This document shows positions 6,839-42,367 of a stretch of 42,367 nucleotides of DNA, piece after piece. The DNA lies in the IMG/VR virus record IMGVR_UViG_2563366848_000004; one strand, 5' to 3'. The DNA is from a virus (Duplodnaviria; Heunggongvirae; Uroviricota; Caudoviricetes). The position numbers and the translations under genes are program-made. Each line of letters opens with the position of its first letter. Position 1 is the first letter of the stretch. The notes under the pieces are model-generated. The model saw nothing but the letters and a program-made list of their open reading frames with translations, was not told the DNA's origin and made no database searches.

Positions 6839-8143
6839 TTATTGACGATTAAAGTAGTTAGAGTTTAGCTCTTTAGGGAAGTAGTGTTTACGATTTACCC
6901 AAACAAATCCATCAACTTTTGATATCACAGCGACATCAACAGGCCCACCGACAGTTTCATAATCATGTGATACTTTTCTTTTGAATGCAGTGATGTTCAC
7001 TAATGATTCGGCCATATACGCAAGATCTGCCTTCCCAAGTGATTGCAACATCGATATCATTTTATTTGTATGGTTATTAACAATATAGCTTTCAAGTTTA
7101 GTATCGTGATCTTGTAAAAGTACGTTTTTGAGTTCCTCAATTTCACTGGAGAAGTGATTGGCTAGTACTCCATTGTTCATTGCAGGGAAAATATTGCTAG
7201 AAACATAATGATTAAGCCGATCAAAAACTTCCTCTGTAAGAGTTCTGTTAAAATTAATGATGTTAGGGTTGCACCCATCAATGAAAGTTACTACTTCATC
7301 TTCTTGAGCAAATGGTATAACAAACCCCATATTGGTTACCTTATTATGGGATTTATCATCAATATTATGGATCATCAATTTGTTTTTAAAAATGCCGTAG
7401 ATATGAAGAGTGCAAATGGAAGGGTAATATTCTTCCTCTCCATAACCTGTTATAACAATCCCTGAATATGTACGACTAGCATGGACTTTGAAAATTAAAC
7501 AAGTGGAATATAATATGACTTTTTCCATAAGCTCTTGCTGTATATTTTCACAGTTATCAAGAACAATAATTGATGAAATGTATGGCGATATTAAATCTTG
7601 TATATATGCTAAAGCATCATTAAACTCTTCTGTATCAAACCCTTCGAAAAAGAGATTATTCCTTAAGATTCCTATCTCTAAATCAAAGGCTTGCTTAACT
7701 ATGTTTTGAAAAATAACATTGTCGAGTTCAACGGCGGGGTTCATTGTTAAATAGTTTACTACATTATTATCATTAATGTATCTCATCAAACCTTTGAGGT
7801 TATCAACAACAAGGTTTATAACGCAAGCCTCTCTCATTTCATTTGTTATAAGGTCTGAGTTACCATTGATGAATTTTACAAAGTCATTAACATATTCTTT
7901 AATGGTAGGGAAACTAGTTTTCCCCAATTGTTTTCTATAGGATTTAATTATAAGTTCCCACGGTGCGCCACCCAGTGTCGCATTATTATAAATCATGATC
8001 CCCACGGGATGGTGTTTAGATAGTTCGAATAGTTTTTCCGCACTATTATTTATTTTTACTAATCTATTATGCTCTGTGGTGACTGCAGAGTCAGCAGCAA
8101 GGGCGATTCCAGTATTATTTATTACAACAATCTCAGCTGTCAT
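6839..8143 (-). CDS. AT-rich 435-aa protein with proteasome-beta/HslV-like Ntn-hydrolase signature; candidate lysogen-expressed defence protein
   Basis: Long ORF in a markedly AT-rich island; start at ATG 8143 (MTAEIVV..., GGGA upstream) preferred over track start 8242, which has no SD; N-terminus T2-x15-D18 ... K30-I and C-terminus DYETVGGPVDVAVISKVDGFVWV resemble Ntn threonine-protease motifs (from memory); same strand as and downstream of the repressor. Confidence 0.75.
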   Translation of the reverse strand: MTAEIVVINNTGIALAADSAVTTEHNRLVKINNSAEKLFELSKHHPVGIMIYNNATLGGAPWELIIKSYRKQLGKTSFPTIKEYVNDFVKFINGNSDLITNEMREACVINLVVDNLKGLMRYINDNNVVNYLTMNPAVELDNVIFQNIVKQAFDLEIGILRNNLFFEGFDTEEFNDALAYIQDLISPYISSIIVLDNCENIQQELMEKVILYSTCLIFKVHASRTYSGIVITGYGEEEYYPSICTLHIYGIFKNKLMIHNIDDKSHNKVTNMGFVIPFAQEDEVVTFIDGCNPNIINFNRTLTEEVFDRLNHYVSSNIFPAMNNGVLANHFSSEIEELKNVLLQDHDTKLESYIVNNHTNKMISMLQSLGKADLAYMAESLVNITAFKRKVSHDYETVGGPVDVAVISKVDGFVWVNRKHYFPKELNSNYFNRQ

Positions 8144-8164
8144 TGCAAAACATCCCGTGTAGTA

Positions 8165-8201
8165 GTGATAAATATTAATTAAATTGATAGTTTTTTTCAA
8201 T
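8165..8201 (-). promoter_or_regulatory. putative sigma70 promoter for the 435-aa gene
   Basis: Minus-strand TTGAAA (8200..8195) - 17 nt - TAATAT (8177..8172), about 30 nt upstream of start codon 8143; AT-rich DNA raises the chance of spurious matches. Confidence 0.35.
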
Positions 8202-8284
8202 CTAACATAAATGGCGGAATCACCCCCCAGTAAAGACATCATTGTCTCATGGGAACTAAAAATTCAGGACAAACCTAAAGCGAT

Positions 8285-8671
8285 TCAGTCCCCCTGCGAG
8301 CGAATCCGCCCCTTCATGTACTTCTCATACAGCTCATCCAGTTCCTTAAGACGTATCGAAAAGATGCGGAGCATGTTCTGTTGCTCTTCTTCTGGCAGCT
8401 GGCGGTAGAGCTCAAGCAGGCGCTGTTCGTCCGGCTTAAGTCCGTCCTTCTCGCCGACATCCTCACCGAGTAACCAAGGCACAGACACGCCAGCTGCGTC
8501 AGCGACAGCGAGAGCTGATTTCTTGCTGATCACGCCTTTTTTAAACCAGCCGTTCACAGACTGCGGGGTTACCCCAGCAACCCTAGCCATATCGGATTTG
8601 GTCATACCGCGCCCGTTCAGCTCTGAAAGGCGTTCGACAAGTATCGGATTAAGTACGGTTTTCTCTTTCAT
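8285..8671 (-). CDS. prophage repressor, HTH XRE family (CI/RacR-like)
   Basis: 128-aa ORF; HTH segment MTKSDMARVAGVTPQSVNGWFKKG; divergent from the Cro-like gene across an operator-rich intergenic region. Confidence 0.8.
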   Translation of the reverse strand: MKEKTVLNPILVERLSELNGRGMTKSDMARVAGVTPQSVNGWFKKGVISKKSALAVADAAGVSVPWLLGEDVGEKDGLKPDEQRLLELYRQLPEEEQQNMLRIFSIRLKELDELYEKYMKGRIRSQGD

Positions 8672-38259: not shown

Positions 38260-38936
38260 GCAAATACACCGAACTGATCACGAACTACCACGCCACCAAA
38301 CCTAAATTTCTTGCACATGTTGATCTGATGACCCGGCCGCTTATTGATGTTGCGGCTGCCACCAGAGGGCTGATTACTGCATTTGATATTGACTCTGCGG
38401 TTGGTGTGCAACTTGACATTCTGGGATTGTGGATCGGACGCAGCCGTGTTGTCAGCCAGCCTATCTCAGGTGTTTATTTCAGCTGGGATACCGACGGGCT
38501 TGGATATGATCAGGGTGTATGGCAGGGGCCATACGATCCTGATTCCGGATACATGTACCTCAGCGATGAAACTTATCGTGTCATCCTTAAAGCGAAGATT
38601 GCGATTAATAACTGGGACGGACGGAATGATTCGCTTCCAGCAATTCTTGACGCGGCGACAGCAGGATCCGGACTGCGAATGCAGATAGTCGATAACCAGG
38701 ACATGACGATATCGGTCTGGCTCTTTCCTGATACTGATATTTCAGATGTATCGCGTGAGTTAATTGCTGCAATTAAACAGGGCTATCTCACAGTAAAAGC
38801 CGCTGGCGTCTGGGCCGGTGGCATTGAAATACCCTCGGTGGAAACGCCCAGCGAGGGCACCCGATTCTTTGGGTTCGACATGGACAATGACTATATCGTC
38901 GGTTTCGACGCCGGCGCATGGGGGAAATTACTCTGA
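38256..38936 (+). CDS. tail protein I-like (baseplate wedge/fibre attachment, putative)
   Basis: 226-aa ORF with ATGA-type overlap with neighbours, directly upstream of the tail fibre. Confidence 0.55.
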   Translation: MSKYTELITNYHATKPKFLAHVDLMTRPLIDVAAATRGLITAFDIDSAVGVQLDILGLWIGRSRVVSQPISGVYFSWDTDGLGYDQGVWQGPYDPDSGYMYLSDETYRVILKAKIAINNWDGRNDSLPAILDAATAGSGLRMQIVDNQDMTISVWLFPDTDISDVSRELIAAIKQGYLTVKAAGVWAGGIEIPSVETPSEGTRFFGFDMDNDYIVGFDAGAWGKLL

Positions 38937-39838
38937 TGGCTAAAAATGAATTTAAACCATTTGCAACTGGCTCTGGTGCTAACGTAACAACTCAGACAGA
39001 CTGGGAATCATTACCTGTCCTATCTGCTGGCTTTACATCGGGGAAGGCATCAAGTGCTCAGGTGAACAAAGGTCTGAGGCAAGGAACGGCAATGGCGGCT
39101 GCTGTGGGGCAGTTTATCGCAGATAATACCAATGAGGATGTGAAAGATAATGGTGATATTGCGGGGCTCTCTGCGCAATTAGCGAGTGCGGTAGAGCAGG
39201 CTGCAACAGGACGGCTTATTGGTGTTCGCACAATAACGATATCCGGGACTTATACGCCAACCCCAGGAACGAAAAGCATTATTGTTGAAGTCCAAGGCGC
39301 AGGCGGAGGAGGGGGCGGGGTTGGTACAACTAACTCTACCAGTGTTGCAGTTGGGTGTGGGGGGGGAAGTGGCGCCTACGCTAAATCCCGTATCGCCAAT
39401 TTAGACTCAGCATACACCGTAATTATTGGTGCTGGTGGTGCTGGTGGAGTAAATGGTAATGGAGGGAATGGAGGTAGCACTTCTTTTGGAACGATTACCG
39501 CAGGTGGCGGATATGGTGGTGGTTCAAGTAACTCCGTTCCTCCAATTATCCAGAATGCTTCTGGAATTCCTACAGCCACTGGTGGGAATATCATAAACTT
39601 ATCTGGAAATAACCCTAGCATAGGCATGGCATTTTCTGCCAACGTCATTATTTCGGGAGGAGGTGCTAGTAGTATATTAGGGGCTGGTGGTAGCCCACAC
39701 GGTACAGCAGGCATTGGTAGAGAAGCTACCGGCTATGGTGCTGGAGGTGGTGGCGCAAATGCATATCAAAATAGCAGCGCACAATACAATGGTGCATCTG
39801 GTAGCAGTGGGGTTGTTATTGTCTGGGAGTATGCATAA
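38936..39838 (+). CDS. tail fibre protein with glycine-rich C-terminal domain
   Basis: Start at ATG overlapping upstream stop (MAKNEFKPFATGSGANVTTQTDWESL..., a conserved fibre N-terminus); C-terminal half is Gly-rich repeats (GAGGGGGGVG, GAGGAGGVNGNGGNGG) with lower GC. Confidence 0.75.
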   Translation: MAKNEFKPFATGSGANVTTQTDWESLPVLSAGFTSGKASSAQVNKGLRQGTAMAAAVGQFIADNTNEDVKDNGDIAGLSAQLASAVEQAATGRLIGVRTITISGTYTPTPGTKSIIVEVQGAGGGGGGVGTTNSTSVAVGCGGGSGAYAKSRIANLDSAYTVIIGAGGAGGVNGNGGNGGSTSFGTITAGGGYGGGSSNSVPPIIQNASGIPTATGGNIINLSGNNPSIGMAFSANVIISGGGASSILGAGGSPHGTAGIGREATGYGAGGGGANAYQNSSAQYNGASGSSGVVIVWEYA

Positions 39839-40026
39839 TGAAATACGCTATTATTGAAAATAACATCGTAAAGAATTTGGTTTTATGGAACGGTAAAGGA
39901 GATTTACTTGGTGTGTCACAGCGTTATAAAGTCGATGATGACATAACTGTAAATATCGGAGATGAAGTTAGAGTCAATAATGGAGTGTTAGAAATTGTAA
40001 GTAAATATCCATTTTTCCCATTGTAA
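39838..40026 (+). CDS. small protein coupled to the tail fibre (possible fibre assembly chaperone)
   Basis: 62-aa AT-rich ORF whose ATG overlaps the fibre stop (TAATG). Confidence 0.45.
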   Translation: MKYAIIENNIVKNLVLWNGKGDLLGVSQRYKVDDDITVNIGDEVRVNNGVLEIVSKYPFFPL

Positions 40027-40077
40027 TTTAAAAGATGGGGGTGTCTTCATAGTTGCCCCCACATAGATATCACTATT

Positions 40078-41124
40078 TTATTTGTTATTTTCTTCTAACG
40101 TTATATGTTTGATTGATTCTCTGTTGTAAGTATAAGTTATATGTATTTTCCCATTTGAGCTTTGTATAATCGCAGGATAGGAGAACTCTTTTCCCTCTTG
40201 TGATTCCAGCGTTAACACATTACCCCATGTTTTCCCGTTATCATTAGATCTGGAAATAGACAAGATGCTTCTGTCTTTCCCTGGGTTATGCACAATTAAC
40301 CCTGTACCATCTCGTAATACGATGCCGTCAACACCACTATTAGTTGAGGGTATCGTGCTTTTTCTTAGCGTAGTCCATGAGTGACCACTATCTGATGACT
40401 GAGATTCCATTAATACTCCTTGATCGCTGCGAGTATACATTTTTATCTCATTATCACGGAATTTTAATAGCGTTGGTTGTATAGCTGAGGTGCCTGTAGG
40501 TTTCGATACTTCTATCTTATTAAAATTCTTCATGTTACTGGTTGTTTCTATGTGAACAAACCATCCCTTATCATTCTCCTCACTGGAAGGGAACAAAACG
40601 TTCTTTCCAGAAAGAATTGGCTTGTTTTTTATTGGCCCGTAAATTCCGTTTGGCAATGCTTGTTTTTTACTCCAACTTAACCCATTGTTGGTCGAAGTAA
40701 TATATTTACCTTCCCATGTGCTAGGTGTTTTTCCTACTTTATAGAAAAGGTATGTTTTATTATGTATATTGAATAAAACTGGATTCCATGTAGGAAGCGG
40801 CTTGCCATCCTCACTGCCATAGGCAACAACGCGCGGTTTTGACCATCCGGATTCAGTCATGGAGGATTGCCAAATCTTTACGTCATCATCACCCTCTTTT
40901 GTCCCACCAAACCATGAGACAAGGATGGTTCCATTACTCATCTCTGCAATAGTGCTTGCGTGAGATTCTTTTATCAACCCCAGTGGGAAGATCAATTCTT
41001 GCTTTATAATTTTAAATGTGCTTTCAGCGTGTGCTAATAGTGATAGCTGAAAAGTTAGAAAGCCTAAAATGAAATAAACATATTTACGCATCTTTGCCAT
41101 TCTATAAAAATTTAACATTATCAT
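40078..41124 (-). CDS. secreted BNR/Asp-box repeat protein (sialidase/glycosidase-like), moron
   Basis: 348-aa ORF with AGGGAG SD; N-terminal signal-peptide-like segment ending LLAHA; three Asp-box-like motifs (STNNGLSWS, SSDSGHSWT, SRSNDNGKTWG); AT-rich; opposite strand to the tail genes. Confidence 0.7.
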   Translation of the reverse strand: MIMLNFYRMAKMRKYVYFILGFLTFQLSLLAHAESTFKIIKQELIFPLGLIKESHASTIAEMSNGTILVSWFGGTKEGDDDVKIWQSSMTESGWSKPRVVAYGSEDGKPLPTWNPVLFNIHNKTYLFYKVGKTPSTWEGKYITSTNNGLSWSKKQALPNGIYGPIKNKPILSGKNVLFPSSEENDKGWFVHIETTSNMKNFNKIEVSKPTGTSAIQPTLLKFRDNEIKMYTRSDQGVLMESQSSDSGHSWTTLRKSTIPSTNSGVDGIVLRDGTGLIVHNPGKDRSILSISRSNDNGKTWGNVLTLESQEGKEFSYPAIIQSSNGKIHITYTYNRESIKHITLEENNK

Positions 41125-41192
41125 ATGGTAACACTCCCTGATCTAAAAAAAAACGCTACGTATGGAAACACGCAACGAGCATGCATAGTCTC

Positions 41193-41502
41193 GTCATCAT
41201 GAATCGCCACGGGTTTAACAGACACCTCAGAGTCATTTAAGATGGCTTAAAGAGAGGTGCCCATGAGCGGTAAGCGTTATCCCGAAGAGTTTAAAACTGA
41301 AGCAGTCAAACAGGTTGTTGATCGCGGTTATTCTGTTGCCAGCGTTGCAACACGTCTCGATATCACCACCCACAGCCTTTATGCCTGGATAAAGAAGTAC
41401 GGTCCGGATTCTTCCACTAATAAAGAACAGTCAGATGCTCAGGCCGAGATCCGCCGTCTCCAGAAAGAGCTGAAACGGGTTTGTAGCTTCCTGCCAGCTT
41501 AA
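41193..41502 (+). mobile_element. IS3-family insertion sequence remnant (left end with truncated orfA)
   Basis: TGAATCGCCACGGG... resembles an IS3-family terminal repeat start; followed by an orfA-like HTH ORF that ends prematurely; no orfB or right end present. Confidence 0.45.
41263..41502 (+). pseudogene. IS3-family transposase OrfA fragment
   Basis: MSGKRYPEEFKTEAVKQVVDRGYSVASVATRLDITTHSLYAWIKKYG...EIRRLQKELKRV resembles IS3-family OrfA (HTH plus start of leucine zipper), then diverges into a short non-homologous tail and stops. Confidence 0.5.
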
Positions 41503-41733
41503 TAATTCGCGACCACCATCGGCACCTCGCCCGTCATCCCAGATACGAATGAAATCACCGCGGGCTTCAGGTAATACCAGTGAAGGAAACACTTTCGCCA
41601 GCACAGGGTAATCAGAGGCAGAAAATTTCGCCACGTTGAACTTCAAAAACACCATACTGGACCAGCTGTCGATTACAGTATTTGGCATTGCAGCGGACGG
41701 CCAGAAGAACGGAACGCCAATAGCTGGAGCACC

Positions 41734-41759
41734 TTCTCCCAAACCAACCTTTTTTATAA
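41734..41759. other. hix/gix-like invertase crossover site (degenerate)
   Basis: TTCTCCCAAACCAACCTTTTTTATAA matches hixL (TTCTTGAAAACCAAGGTTTTTGATAA, from memory) at 20 of 26 positions including the AA core; about 60 bp upstream of the invertase start. Confidence 0.35.
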
Positions 41760-41818
41760 CCATCAAAAATCTGGTGATGCTTCGCCGTTTCTCCTGTTTT
41801 CATAACAGGAGAAATCCC

Positions 41819-42367
41819 ATGATTTACGGTTATGCCCGAGTATCAACAAACCACCAGGACACTGAATTGCAACTAACGGCGCTCAAGTCAGCGGGTTGTG
41901 AGAAAATTTTTGAAGAGCATGCCAGCGGGAGGAAATCGAATCGGCCGGTTCTAAAACGGCTGATCGCCACTATGCAGCCGGGGGATGAACTGGTGGTCTG
42001 GAAGCTGGACAGGATAGGCCGCAACGTTCTGCATGCGCTGTTGATGTTCCAGCAGTTACAGGAAAAGGGTATCAACTTCCGCAGTATTACCGATGGCGTG
42101 GATCTCAAAACAGCCAGCGGCCGCTATAACTTTCGTAACATCCTTTCCGCAGCACAATATGAATCTGATCTTAATAGCGGACGTACCTTAGCAGGGCTGG
42201 CCGTAGCCAGGGCAAAAGGGCGAGTTGGTGGTCGCAGGCCTAAGTTCACGGATGAGCAATGGCGGGAAATGGGGGAGCGGATGGCAACCGGTGAATCACG
42301 ACAAAGCGTATCAAAAACGTATGGAGTAGGGCTCTCAACTCTGTATAAAAAGTTTCCAGCTAGTTGA
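41819..42367 (+). CDS. serine recombinase, DNA invertase (Pin/Gin/Hin family)
   Basis: Start at ATG 41819 with AGGAGAAA SD (track ORF has a spurious 61-codon N-terminal extension); MIYGYARVSTNHQDTELQ catalytic-serine N-terminus, resolvase core and C-terminal HTH (SVSKTYGVGLSTLYKKF). Confidence 0.85.
   Translation: MIYGYARVSTNHQDTELQLTALKSAGCEKIFEEHASGRKSNRPVLKRLIATMQPGDELVVWKLDRIGRNVLHALLMFQQLQEKGINFRSITDGVDLKTASGRYNFRNILSAAQYESDLNSGRTLAGLAVARAKGRVGGRRPKFTDEQWREMGERMATGESRQSVSKTYGVGLSTLYKKFPAS

What the first reader, a model, noticed from the sequence alone, without database searches (positions are those of the whole stretch)
40078..41124. Opposite-strand, AT-rich secreted BNR/Asp-box protein after the tail fibre: lysogenic-conversion candidate
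This 348-aa protein has its own SD, a signal-peptide-like N-terminus and three Asp-box motifs (S-x-D/N-x-G-x-S/T-W) as found in sialidases and related glycosidases. It is strongly AT-rich and transcribed against the late operon, so it is likely expressed from the prophage independently of the lytic programme. It could modify host surface glycans (receptor masking) or act on host glycoconjugates.
Basis: partly seen in the sequence, partly recalled or inferred. Interest (0 to 1): 0.65.

Follow-up and report, generated by a model that had tools for sequence, protein, structure and literature searches.

The report
Exported sialidase-fold prophage cargo gene
An intact, AT-rich gene at the tail-fibre end of an E. 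coli prophage encodes an exported six-bladed "sialidase-like" propeller enzyme from a very large uncharacterised family; it sits where sister phages carry surface-sugar-modifying genes, but it lacks two residues that define true sialidases, so its substrate is unknown.

The parts
40078..41124 (-). CDS, 348 aa, BNR_2 / sialidase-superfamily six-bladed beta-propeller
41029..41124 (-). Codons 1-32: Sec-type signal peptide (n-region K11/R13/K14, h-region Y15-L30, c-region AHA, predicted cleavage A32|E33). Alternative starts M9 and M12 are used by some annotators.
   Evidence: Sequence and hydropathy; helix 3-31 in the model; 340- and 337-aa versions in databases. By inspection only.
41134..41139 (-). 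Shine-Dalgarno AGGGAG, 9 nt before the ATG
40672..40695 (-). Asp-box 1 (aa 144-151, STNNGLSW)
40375..40398 (-). Asp-box 2 (aa 243-250, SSDSGHSW)
40225..40248 (-). Asp-box 3 (aa 293-300, SNDNGKTW)
40036..40061 (.). GC-rich hairpin (TGGGGG...CCCCCA) between the convergent 62-aa ORF and the BNR_2 stop. On the minus strand it is followed by UCUUUU, a likely terminator of the BNR_2 transcript.
   Evidence: Fold -14 kcal/mol, z -2.3; the 51-nt spacer is 100% identical in all six other copies
41125..41201 (-). The 77 nt of native upstream sequence retained in this window. It includes a terminator-like hairpin plus T9 (41145-41177) of uncertain meaning.
   Evidence: Homology to the intact loci stops at 41201; consensus terminator hit, but the fold is not better than shuffles
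41201..41480 (+). Truncated IS3-family element (left end plus partial orfA, HTH_Tnp_1), inserted 77 nt upstream of the BNR_2 start
   Evidence: IS3 family transposase hits; Pfam HTH_Tnp_1 E 1.2e-19; same junction in metagenome contig L007
39838..40026 (+). 62-aa ORF whose start overlaps the fibre stop (TAATG); it belongs to the fibre module, not to the cargo
   Evidence: Homologue (44% id, E 6e-11) follows the related fibre in E. coli PI24, where the cargo is different; always adjacent to BNR_2 in databases
38918..39838 (+). Tail fibre with a Gly_rich_2 distal domain. From about 39121 it is part of the mosaic segment (39121-41201) absent from the otherwise near-identical prophage of strain LR-33 and from phage Omnitron.
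   Evidence: Pfam PF21722; PHROG tail-fibre hits; blastn junctions

Best explanation
The gene is a horizontally acquired prophage accessory gene (a moron). It encodes a Sec-exported, stand-alone six-bladed beta-propeller enzyme of the BNR_2 / 'predicted neuraminidase' clade of the sialidase superfamily. Shown: the gene is intact and lies inside the prophage next to the att end. The protein has the sialidase fold. It keeps all putative active-site residues of its own family: His55, Glu77/Asp81, Gln216, Arg232, Arg285, Tyr316, Arg335. Inferred: after export to the periplasm it acts as an exo-glycosidase. It would remove a terminal sugar, most plausibly an acidic 2-keto-3-deoxy (sialic-acid/KDN/Kdo-like) sugar, from oligosaccharides or glycoconjugates. 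It would use Tyr316 with two canonical arginines, plus Arg335 substituting for the missing FRIP arginine. The benefit would go to the lysogen as a fitness or nutritional conversion function, in the way Fels-1 NanH is cargo in Salmonella. It is not a canonical GH33 sialidase, and Neu5Ac specificity should not be assumed. In this window the native upstream region has been cut by an IS3-family insertion, so expression may be altered.
For: Fold and family. Residue mapping: an HMM alignment to NanB gives R232=R557, Y316=Y653, Q216=E541 and E77=D270, with R285 within two residues of the third triad arginine (R619 in my recollection). The same spacings appear in NanH, whose catalytic residues I confirmed in its sequence: E-R 15 against 16, R-Y 33 against 31, Y-E/R 19 against 19. 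The query keeps 56 of 59 residues invariant in 42 homologues, including all of these. Export. Catabolic context of homologues at 38-46% identity: of 70 metagenome loci with a callable gene, 8 have a Na+/solute symporter (SSF) next to or near the gene, mostly abutting or overlapping it on the same strand; 3 have a DHDPS/NanA-type aldolase; others have MFS transporters, GH92, GH78, GH3 or GH29. Two further loci lie in clusters of GH29 fucosidases with GH3, plus GH35 in one and GH2 and sulfatases in the other. Phage cargo status: last gene before the thrW att core in intact copies; present in IMG/VR contigs. Precedent: Fels-1 has NanH (identical to PDB 1DIL over its 381 residues) in the same fibre - assembly protein - opposite-strand gene - transposase fragment - attP layout, also AT-rich.
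Against: No member of this clade has a demonstrated activity that I could find. Gln in place of the Glu that activates the Tyr nucleophile, and His in place of Arg1, could mean a different chemistry or substrate. Most homologue loci (about 80%) show no informative neighbours. The E. coli copy has no adjacent transporter or aldolase. It has lost two otherwise invariant residues of the NPNSG motif (N260S, P261T) and 9 of 36 near-invariant ones. The six other copies show 1 synonymous and 4 non-synonymous differences from the window copy, too few to show purifying selection. No promoter was identified.
Confidence: 0.45

Rival explanations
1. Lysogenic conversion in the strict sense. The periplasmic enzyme trims a sugar from the lysogen's own LPS core, O-antigen, capsule or ECA during assembly. 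That would change the receptor used by the co-inherited Gly-rich tail fibre and by related phages, giving superinfection exclusion and serotype change.
For: The same opposite-strand, AT-rich slot after the fibre module holds Acyl_transf_3 genes in Salmonella phage SEN34 and in the E. coli PI24 prophage. This is the Pfam family I recall as containing the O-antigen acetyltransferases Oac and OafA. The two genes are unrelated in sequence, so they were acquired independently. Where the fibre gene is present (six of the seven copies) the BNR_2 gene travels with the same fibre tip; the segment is 95-100% identical while the flanking baseplate genes are 69-94%. The protein is exported to the compartment where these glycans are assembled. 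A sialidase-like enzyme that edits LPS from the periplasmic side exists: Kdo hydrolase (PMC3573668, PMC4402001). One homologue lies about 3 kb from heptosyltransferase and HldE-type LPS genes.
Against: The evidence is purely positional. Att-proximal slots also carry non-envelope cargo, such as NanH in Fels-1. The known converting enzymes I recall are membrane transferases, not soluble hydrolases. Kdo hydrolase needs a 7-TM partner and none is present here. Family contexts are mostly catabolic or uninformative. No PADLOC or PHROG match.
Confidence: 0.25
2. A bona fide exo-alpha-sialidase acting on Neu5Ac glycoconjugates, as PGAP names it. It would give E. coli, which I recall as lacking a sialidase, direct access to host sialoglycans.
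For: PGAP names are 'exo-alpha-sialidase' and 'sialidase family protein'. The best structural neighbours are all sialidases. Tyr and two of the three Arg are at canonical positions. SSF plus NanA-like operons occur in some homologues.
Against: The FRIP motif is absent (S-H-A-S). The catalytic Glu is an invariant Gln. Sequence similarity to solved sialidases is marginal (E 3e-6; profile E 8e-12). There is no NCBIfam hit. The relatives that carry an organism name are from soil, water, marine or plant organisms, where Neu5Ac should be scarce.
Confidence: 0.12
3. A functionally neutral or decaying passenger, captured with flanking DNA and carried along by recombination and IS activity, with no role in E. 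coli.
For: The gene is very rare (2 of 5,426 complete genomes). There are no relatives between 47% and 99% identity. It has lost NPNSG residues that are invariant elsewhere. IS elements abut it in the window and in L007. Differences among copies are mostly non-synonymous.
Against: The reading frame is intact in all seven full copies examined, and the protein is present on a few hundred contigs from E. coli, Citrobacter and Enterobacter. All putative catalytic residues are retained. In L007 it survives, with the 62-aa ORF, in an otherwise destroyed prophage end.
Confidence: 0.15
4. A virion-associated depolymerase or receptor-destroying enzyme of the tail.
For: Sialidase-fold domains occur in many phage tail fibres and spikes.
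Against: It lies on the opposite strand to the late operon. It has a cleavable Sec leader. It is a bare 316-residue propeller with no fibre-attachment domain. The viral matches are large multidomain fibres at 17% identity or less.
Confidence: 0.02

Closest known systems
NanH sialidase of Salmonella prophage Fels-1 (GH33; PDB 1DIL/3SIL)
   Different: NanH has the full canonical set R37/D62/E231/R246/R309/Y342/E361 and, by inspection of its N-terminus, no Sec-type hydrophobic leader. The window protein has H55/E77/Q216/R232/R285/Y316/R335 and a Sec leader. Profile comparison finds no meaningful sequence alignment. The phage types differ: Fels-1's tail genes are annotated as lambda homologues (gpL, gpK, gpI, gpJ), whereas this prophage has the baseplate genes of the SEN34-like contractile-tail group.
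Pfam PF13088 (BNR_2) / COG4692 'predicted neuraminidase' clade of Bacteroidota, Acidobacteriota, Planctomycetota and plants
   Same: Full-length match (E 4e-70). Same size (about 345 aa), same N-terminal leader, and 56 of 59 invariant residues, including the H/E/Q/R/R/Y/R set.
   Different: The best identity is only 44-47%. The host is an enterobacterial phage rather than an environmental bacterium. The NPNSG motif is altered. There is no neighbouring transporter, aldolase or GH genes.
Acyl_transf_3 (O-acetyltransferase-type) cargo of phage SEN34 (SEN34_29) and of the E. coli PI24 prophage
   Same: Same slot, same opposite-strand orientation and, for SEN34, the same low GC, in phages with the same baseplate and, for PI24, a homologous fibre and small ORF.
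   Different: These are integral-membrane acyltransferases. The protein family and chemistry are entirely different.
Two-component Kdo hydrolase KdhAB / KdoH1-KdoH2 of Francisella, Helicobacter and Legionella
   Same: A sialidase-like catalytic protein that edits a 2-keto-3-deoxy sugar of LPS from the periplasmic side (PMC3573668, PMC4402001).
   Different: Activity requires a co-transcribed 7-TM partner, and the catalytic subunit is membrane-anchored. No such partner is near the window gene. The sequence relationship could not be tested because I failed to retrieve kdhA.
Phage endosialidases and sialidase-domain tail fibres (e.g. phi92 endosialidase 4HIZ)
   Different: These are large, virion-attached proteins. 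I recall them as late-operon proteins without signal peptides.

Membership tests
GH33 exo-alpha-sialidase | Six-bladed beta-propeller catalytic domain | tested here: met
GH33 exo-alpha-sialidase | Asp-box (S-x-D-x-G-x-T-W) repeats | tested here: met
   Three exact boxes at aa 144, 243 and 293
GH33 exo-alpha-sialidase | FRIP motif supplying the first arginine of the triad | tested here: not met
   The equivalent strand reads E-S-H55-A-S-T (family consensus C-H-A-S-T, invariant His). H55-E77 spacing is 22, against R37-D62 25 in NanH.
GH33 exo-alpha-sialidase | Second and third arginines of the triad | tested here: met
   R232 aligns with NanB R557; R285 aligns within two residues of an Arg in the NSRSGRK stretch that I take to hold NanB R619. 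Spacings match NanH. Both are invariant in the family.
GH33 exo-alpha-sialidase | Nucleophilic tyrosine | tested here: met
   Y316 (E-F-S-Y-P) aligns with NanB Y653; invariant
GH33 exo-alpha-sialidase | Glutamate that activates the tyrosine | tested here: not met
   The position 16 residues before R232 is the invariant Q216, aligned to NanB E541. The Glu-Arg spacing is 15 in NanH and 16 in NanB.
GH33 exo-alpha-sialidase | Acid/base aspartate about 25 residues after Arg1 | tested here: inconclusive
   Invariant E77 aligns with NanB D270 (GGTxE against GGTHD). Invariant D81 is an alternative. Neither is an Asp at the exact position.
GH33 exo-alpha-sialidase | Hydrolysis of sialosides | not testable with these tools
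   Needs an enzyme assay
Pfam BNR_2 (PF13088) | Score above the gathering threshold over the whole model | tested here: met
   236.8 bits against a 31.4 cutoff, profile 1-277/277
Pfam BNR_2 (PF13088) | Retention of clade-invariant residues | tested here: met
   56 of 59 kept; lost N260S, P261T, V268I
Prophage moron / lysogenic-conversion gene | Lies inside the prophage boundaries, next to att | tested here: met
   In L006 and L009 the 3' half of tRNA-Thr lies 200-246 nt upstream of the ATG; L001 and L002 share only its last ~18 nt (GACCTTCGCATTACGAAT) at the same point. The gene is in IMG/VR viral contigs. In the window it lies between the fibre gene and the invertase gene.
Prophage moron / lysogenic-conversion gene | Own translation and termination signals, opposite orientation, deviant composition | tested here: met
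   Shine-Dalgarno, convergent hairpin, GC 0.374 against 0.540
Prophage moron / lysogenic-conversion gene | Own promoter, expressed in the lysogen | tested here: inconclusive
   Only weak sigma-70-like matches, no more than in shuffles. The native upstream region is truncated at -77 by IS3 in this window.
Prophage moron / lysogenic-conversion gene | Changes a host phenotype | not testable with these tools
   Needs a lysogen-against-deletion comparison
Sec-exported protein | n/h/c-region signal peptide with an A-x-A cleavage site | tested here: met
   K11/R13/K14, hydrophobic 15-30, AHA|E. Inspection only; no SignalP was available.
Two-component Kdo hydrolase (KdhAB) | Adjacent co-transcribed polytopic (7-TM) partner required for activity | tested here: not met
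   The neighbours are a 62-aa soluble ORF on the other strand and an IS3 fragment. The requirement is from PMC4402001.
Two-component Kdo hydrolase (KdhAB) | Sequence similarity to KdhA/KdoH1 | not tested
   Two attempts to fetch Francisella kdhA by published primer sequences found nothing

The most novel reading that the evidence does not exclude
A 'subtractive' lysogenic conversion. The phage exports a soluble sialidase-superfamily hydrolase that clips an acidic keto-sugar (Kdo- or sialic-acid-like) or another terminal residue from the lysogen's own LPS, capsule or ECA in the periplasm. This would erase the receptor recognised by the Gly-rich tail fibre it is inherited with. It would be a conversion mechanism based on a glycosidase rather than on the acetyl- or glucosyl-transferases that I know as the usual converting enzymes. 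It would also give the first function for the huge H/Q/R variant clade of BNR_2 proteins.
Probability: 0.12. Interest if true: 0.75.

Novelty: new member of a known kind. Interest (0 to 1): 0.42.

Why it matters
As I recall, E. coli is regarded as lacking a sialidase and relying on other gut bacteria to free sialic acid. A phage-delivered exported sialidase-fold enzyme, even if rare, would change that picture for the strains that carry it, or would show that the 'exo-alpha-sialidase' label in genome annotation is misleading. More broadly, the protein belongs to a clade of many thousands of 'predicted neuraminidases' that share a non-canonical active site (His for the FRIP Arg, Gln for the catalytic Glu, Arg where sialidases have a Glu). 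I found no characterised activity for this clade. The enterobacterial copy sits in a tractable host and is a convenient handle for assigning that function. The locus also marks a well-defined cargo slot in SEN34-like myoviruses, filled by acyltransferase in some and by this propeller in others.

Tried and rejected
(1) NCBIfam, PHROGs and PADLOC scans of the protein gave no hits.

(2) I tried to test kinship with Kdo hydrolase by fetching Francisella kdhA with two published primer sequences. Both genome-contig scans were empty, which exhausted that collection. The Zhao & Raetz paper is not held.

(3) The afdb50 fold library was not available.

(4) hhalign of the family profile against NanH gave only a blade-shifted 45-column match. 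The residue mapping therefore rests on the HMMER alignment to NanB and on conserved spacings. Model coordinates are not exposed, so I could not check the geometry of the pocket.

(5) tblastn of the 62-aa ORF and of the fibre tip against 50,697 phage genomes found nothing. The Gly-rich query may have been masked.

(6) I first read the cassette as an IS3 composite transposon and rejected that. The IS on the other side in L007 is a different element.

(7) The 'phage' record ECO95 1-6-1, with a 34% relative, is an UNVERIFIED_ORG wastewater contig and was ignored.

(8) The terminator-like hairpin plus T9 just upstream of the Shine-Dalgarno does not fold better than shuffles, and one such hit is expected by chance. 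An Rfam scan of the native leader was empty.

(9) A dN/dS estimate is not possible with five variable sites.

(10) Literature searches for BNR_2, PF13088, COG4692 and prophage sialidases found no characterisation of this clade or gene.

Full report
OBSERVATION. The ORF at 40078-41124 on the minus strand is real and intact: 348 aa with an ATG start. An AGGGAG Shine-Dalgarno lies 9 nt upstream. The N-terminus has basic residues (K11, R13, K14), a hydrophobic core (Y15-L30) and an AHA|ES c-region. AlphaFold models residues 3-31 as a helix ahead of the globular domain. All 42 aligned homologues carry a comparable leader, some with lipobox-like cysteines. Three exact Asp-boxes lie at aa 144, 243 and 293. 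GC is 0.374 for the CDS, against 0.540 for the late region (profile). The gene is convergent with the plus-strand late operon. A GC-rich hairpin (40036-40061) sits in the 51-nt spacer, which is identical in every other copy.

It is not a canonical GH33 sialidase. An HMM alignment of the family to pneumococcal NanB aligns R232 with R557, Y316 with Y653 and E77 with D270. R285 falls within two residues of an arginine in the stretch I take to hold R619. The same alignment places the invariant Gln216 on E541, the Glu that activates the tyrosine. The FRIP strand reads S-H55-A-S-T, with the His invariant.

I confirmed the recalled NanH catalytic residues (R37, D62, E231, R246, R309, Y342, E361) in the Fels-1 sequence. 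The spacings are parallel: Glu/Gln to Arg2 15 against 16, Arg3 to Tyr 33 against 31, and Tyr to Glu361/Arg335 19 against 19. So where sialidases pair Arg1 with a Glu, this family has His55 and an invariant Arg335. That looks like a swap that could rebuild an arginine cluster from another strand. These features are family-wide. The window protein retains 56 of 59 residues invariant in the other 42 sequences, including all of the above. It has changed N260, P261 and V268 (the NPNSG motif) and 9 of 36 near-invariant positions.

DISTRIBUTION. More than 7,500 relatives were found. After the 99-100% identical copies, the next best are only 44-47% identical. The few that carry an organism name are Bacteroidota (Zunongwangia, Daejeonella, Spirosoma, Adhaeribacter), Acidobacteriota, Planctomycetota and a soybean protein. 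They are mostly labelled 'predicted neuraminidase'. An independent metagenome scan also found nothing above 46%. The gene occurs in 2 of 5,426 complete E. coli genomes, E89 and ET776. It occurs in 2 IMG/VR contigs. In 50,697 phage genomes only two distant relatives turned up, and one of them is an unverified wastewater contig. In the large protein collection it is on a few hundred contigs of E. coli, Citrobacter and Enterobacter. Those entries are already named 'sialidase family protein' or 'exo-alpha-sialidase' (e.g. WP_077249864.1). The low GC and the identity gap indicate an old or unsampled cross-lineage acquisition, followed by recent spread among enterobacterial prophages.

GENOMIC SETTING. 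The window is a SEN34/Omnitron-like prophage with contractile-tail baseplate genes, running from its integrase to a DNA invertase. Compared with the near-identical LR-33 prophage and phage Omnitron, window 39121-41732 is replaced. Within that stretch, 39121-41201 holds the distal Gly_rich_2 part of the fibre, the 62-aa ORF and the BNR_2 gene. That segment is shared at 95-100% identity with six other loci whose neighbouring baseplate genes are only 69-94% identical, so it is a recombining module.

In undisturbed copies (E89, ET776 and contigs L006 and L009) 217-246 nt upstream of the ATG are conserved. In L006 and L009 they end in the 3' half of tRNA-Thr (thrW). In E89 and ET776 only the last ~18 nt of that tRNA fragment are shared at the same point. 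The gene is therefore the last one before the prophage att end. In the window, and in contig L007, a truncated IS3-family element is inserted 77 nt upstream of the ATG. Beyond it lie a remnant of the alternative fibre segment and the invertase. The native upstream region is thus largely missing here. Only weak sigma-70-like matches were found anywhere. Independent expression is plausible but not shown, and is particularly uncertain in this window.

THE SLOT. E. coli PI24 carries a sister prophage with the same baseplate, a fibre tip 82% identical in DNA, and a homologue of the 62-aa ORF (44% identity, E 6e-11). That places the small ORF in the fibre module. In the same opposite-strand position PI24 has an Acyl_transf_3 gene, followed by intS and tRNA-Arg. 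Salmonella phage SEN34 likewise has an opposite-strand, AT-rich Acyl_transf_3 'O-acetyltransferase' after its fibre and assembly genes. The two acyltransferases are unrelated in sequence, so they were acquired independently. Salmonella prophage Fels-1 shows an equivalent layout: fibre, assembly protein, opposite-strand NanH (identical to PDB 1DIL over its 381 residues), transposase fragment, attP. The position is therefore a recognised cargo or conversion slot, and a phage-borne sialidase-fold gene there has a direct precedent.

WHAT IT PROBABLY DOES. Neighbours of homologues give the only functional hints. The metagenome scan kept 80 loci, and the homologue could be called as a gene in 70 of them. 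In 8 of those 70 a Na+/solute symporter (SSF) lies next to or near the gene, mostly abutting or overlapping it on the same strand. Three loci have a DHDPS/NanA-type aldolase. Four loci have neutral-ceramidase-like genes and four have MFS transporters. Scattered loci have GH92, GH78, GH3 or GH29. Two further loci lie in clusters of GH29 fucosidases with GH3, plus GH35 in one and GH2 and sulfatases in the other. One is about 3 kb from LPS heptosyltransferase and HldE genes, and two are among housekeeping genes.

The arrangement of exported hydrolase, symporter and aldolase is the logic of sialic-acid-type catabolism. With the retained Tyr and arginines, it favours an exo-hydrolase for a terminal acidic keto-sugar, though not necessarily Neu5Ac. 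I therefore rank a periplasmic exo-glycosidase serving lysogen fitness first (0.45). Receptor or surface-glycan editing comes second (0.25); it is supported by the slot analogy and by co-inheritance with the fibre, and the Kdo hydrolase of Francisella and Helicobacter is a mechanistic precedent. That enzyme needs a 7-TM partner, which is absent here. A neutral passenger (0.15) and a true Neu5Ac sialidase (0.12) follow. A virion enzyme is essentially excluded.

VERDICT. The fold, export signal and cargo status hold. 'Sialidase' and 'independently expressed' are not established, and receptor masking is one of two comparably weighted readings. The gene is already annotated in public genomes, and a phage-borne sialidase in an equivalent slot is known (Fels-1), so this is a new member of a known kind. 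The remaining interest lies in the uncharacterised, non-canonical active site and the unknown substrate. Interest 0.42.

Noticed in passing
window 6839-8242 (-): A 467-aa ORF in the most AT-rich stretch of the window (GC 0.33), directly downstream of and co-oriented with the 128-aa HTH repressor-like gene (8285-8671). It has no Pfam or PADLOC match. Its position suggests a lysogen-expressed exclusion or defence gene.
   Followed up: partly
window 41201-41480 (+): A truncated IS3-family element (left end plus partial orfA) joins the BNR_2 upstream region to a remnant of the invertible fibre segment. The identical junction occurs in metagenome contig L007. There a different IS3-family element has also replaced the fibre gene, leaving only the 62-aa ORF and BNR_2.
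   Followed up: yes
window 41431-42367: A remnant of an alternative tail-fibre C-terminus (41431-41766, minus strand) and a Pin/Gin-type DNA invertase (from about 41820, plus strand; it runs off the window). The intact invertible fibre switch seen in strain LR-33 and phage Omnitron has been partly deleted here.
   Followed up: partly
window 39838-40026 (+): A 62-aa ORF (GC 0.31) overlaps the fibre stop codon (TAATG). It has no Pfam match, only a marginal PHROG hit (E 0.0065), and no match in 50,697 phage genomes. It has a 44% homologue after the related fibre in E. coli PI24. It is probably a fibre accessory or chaperone.
   Followed up: partly
window 41145-41177 (-): A terminator-like hairpin followed by T9, about 5 nt before the Shine-Dalgarno of the BNR_2 gene, conserved (T8 or T9) in all copies. 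The fold is not better than shuffles, so its meaning (attenuator, insulator across attP, or nothing) is open.
   Followed up: partly
L001 / L006 / L009, 80-140 nt upstream of the BNR_2 start (cut by IS3 in the window at 41201): Two direct repeats, ATGGCACATGATG, lie between the gene and the thrW att core. They are likely integrase arm-type sites of attP. The IS3 insertion in the window falls inside the second repeat.
   Followed up: no
window 35147-35692 (+): A second variable slot, between the baseplate genes and gpV. It holds a 181-aa ORF here, a YafO toxin in ET776, Fic plus Phd in contig L006, and a different small ORF in E89.
   Followed up: no
L034, L060, L069, L087 (metagenome loci): In several environmental homologue loci the BNR_2 gene abuts one or two neutral-ceramidase-like genes. 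This hints that part of the clade acts on glycosphingolipids.
   Followed up: no
literature: PMC12928451 (E. coli BEN2908 GR6): ExPEC and AIEC strains carry a different COG4692 gene (1170 bp) in a cluster with NanQ/EbgC-like, DapA-like, Fe-ADH, OtnK and PdxA2 genes. This is a separate, apparently metabolic, sialidase-like locus in E. coli.
   Followed up: no
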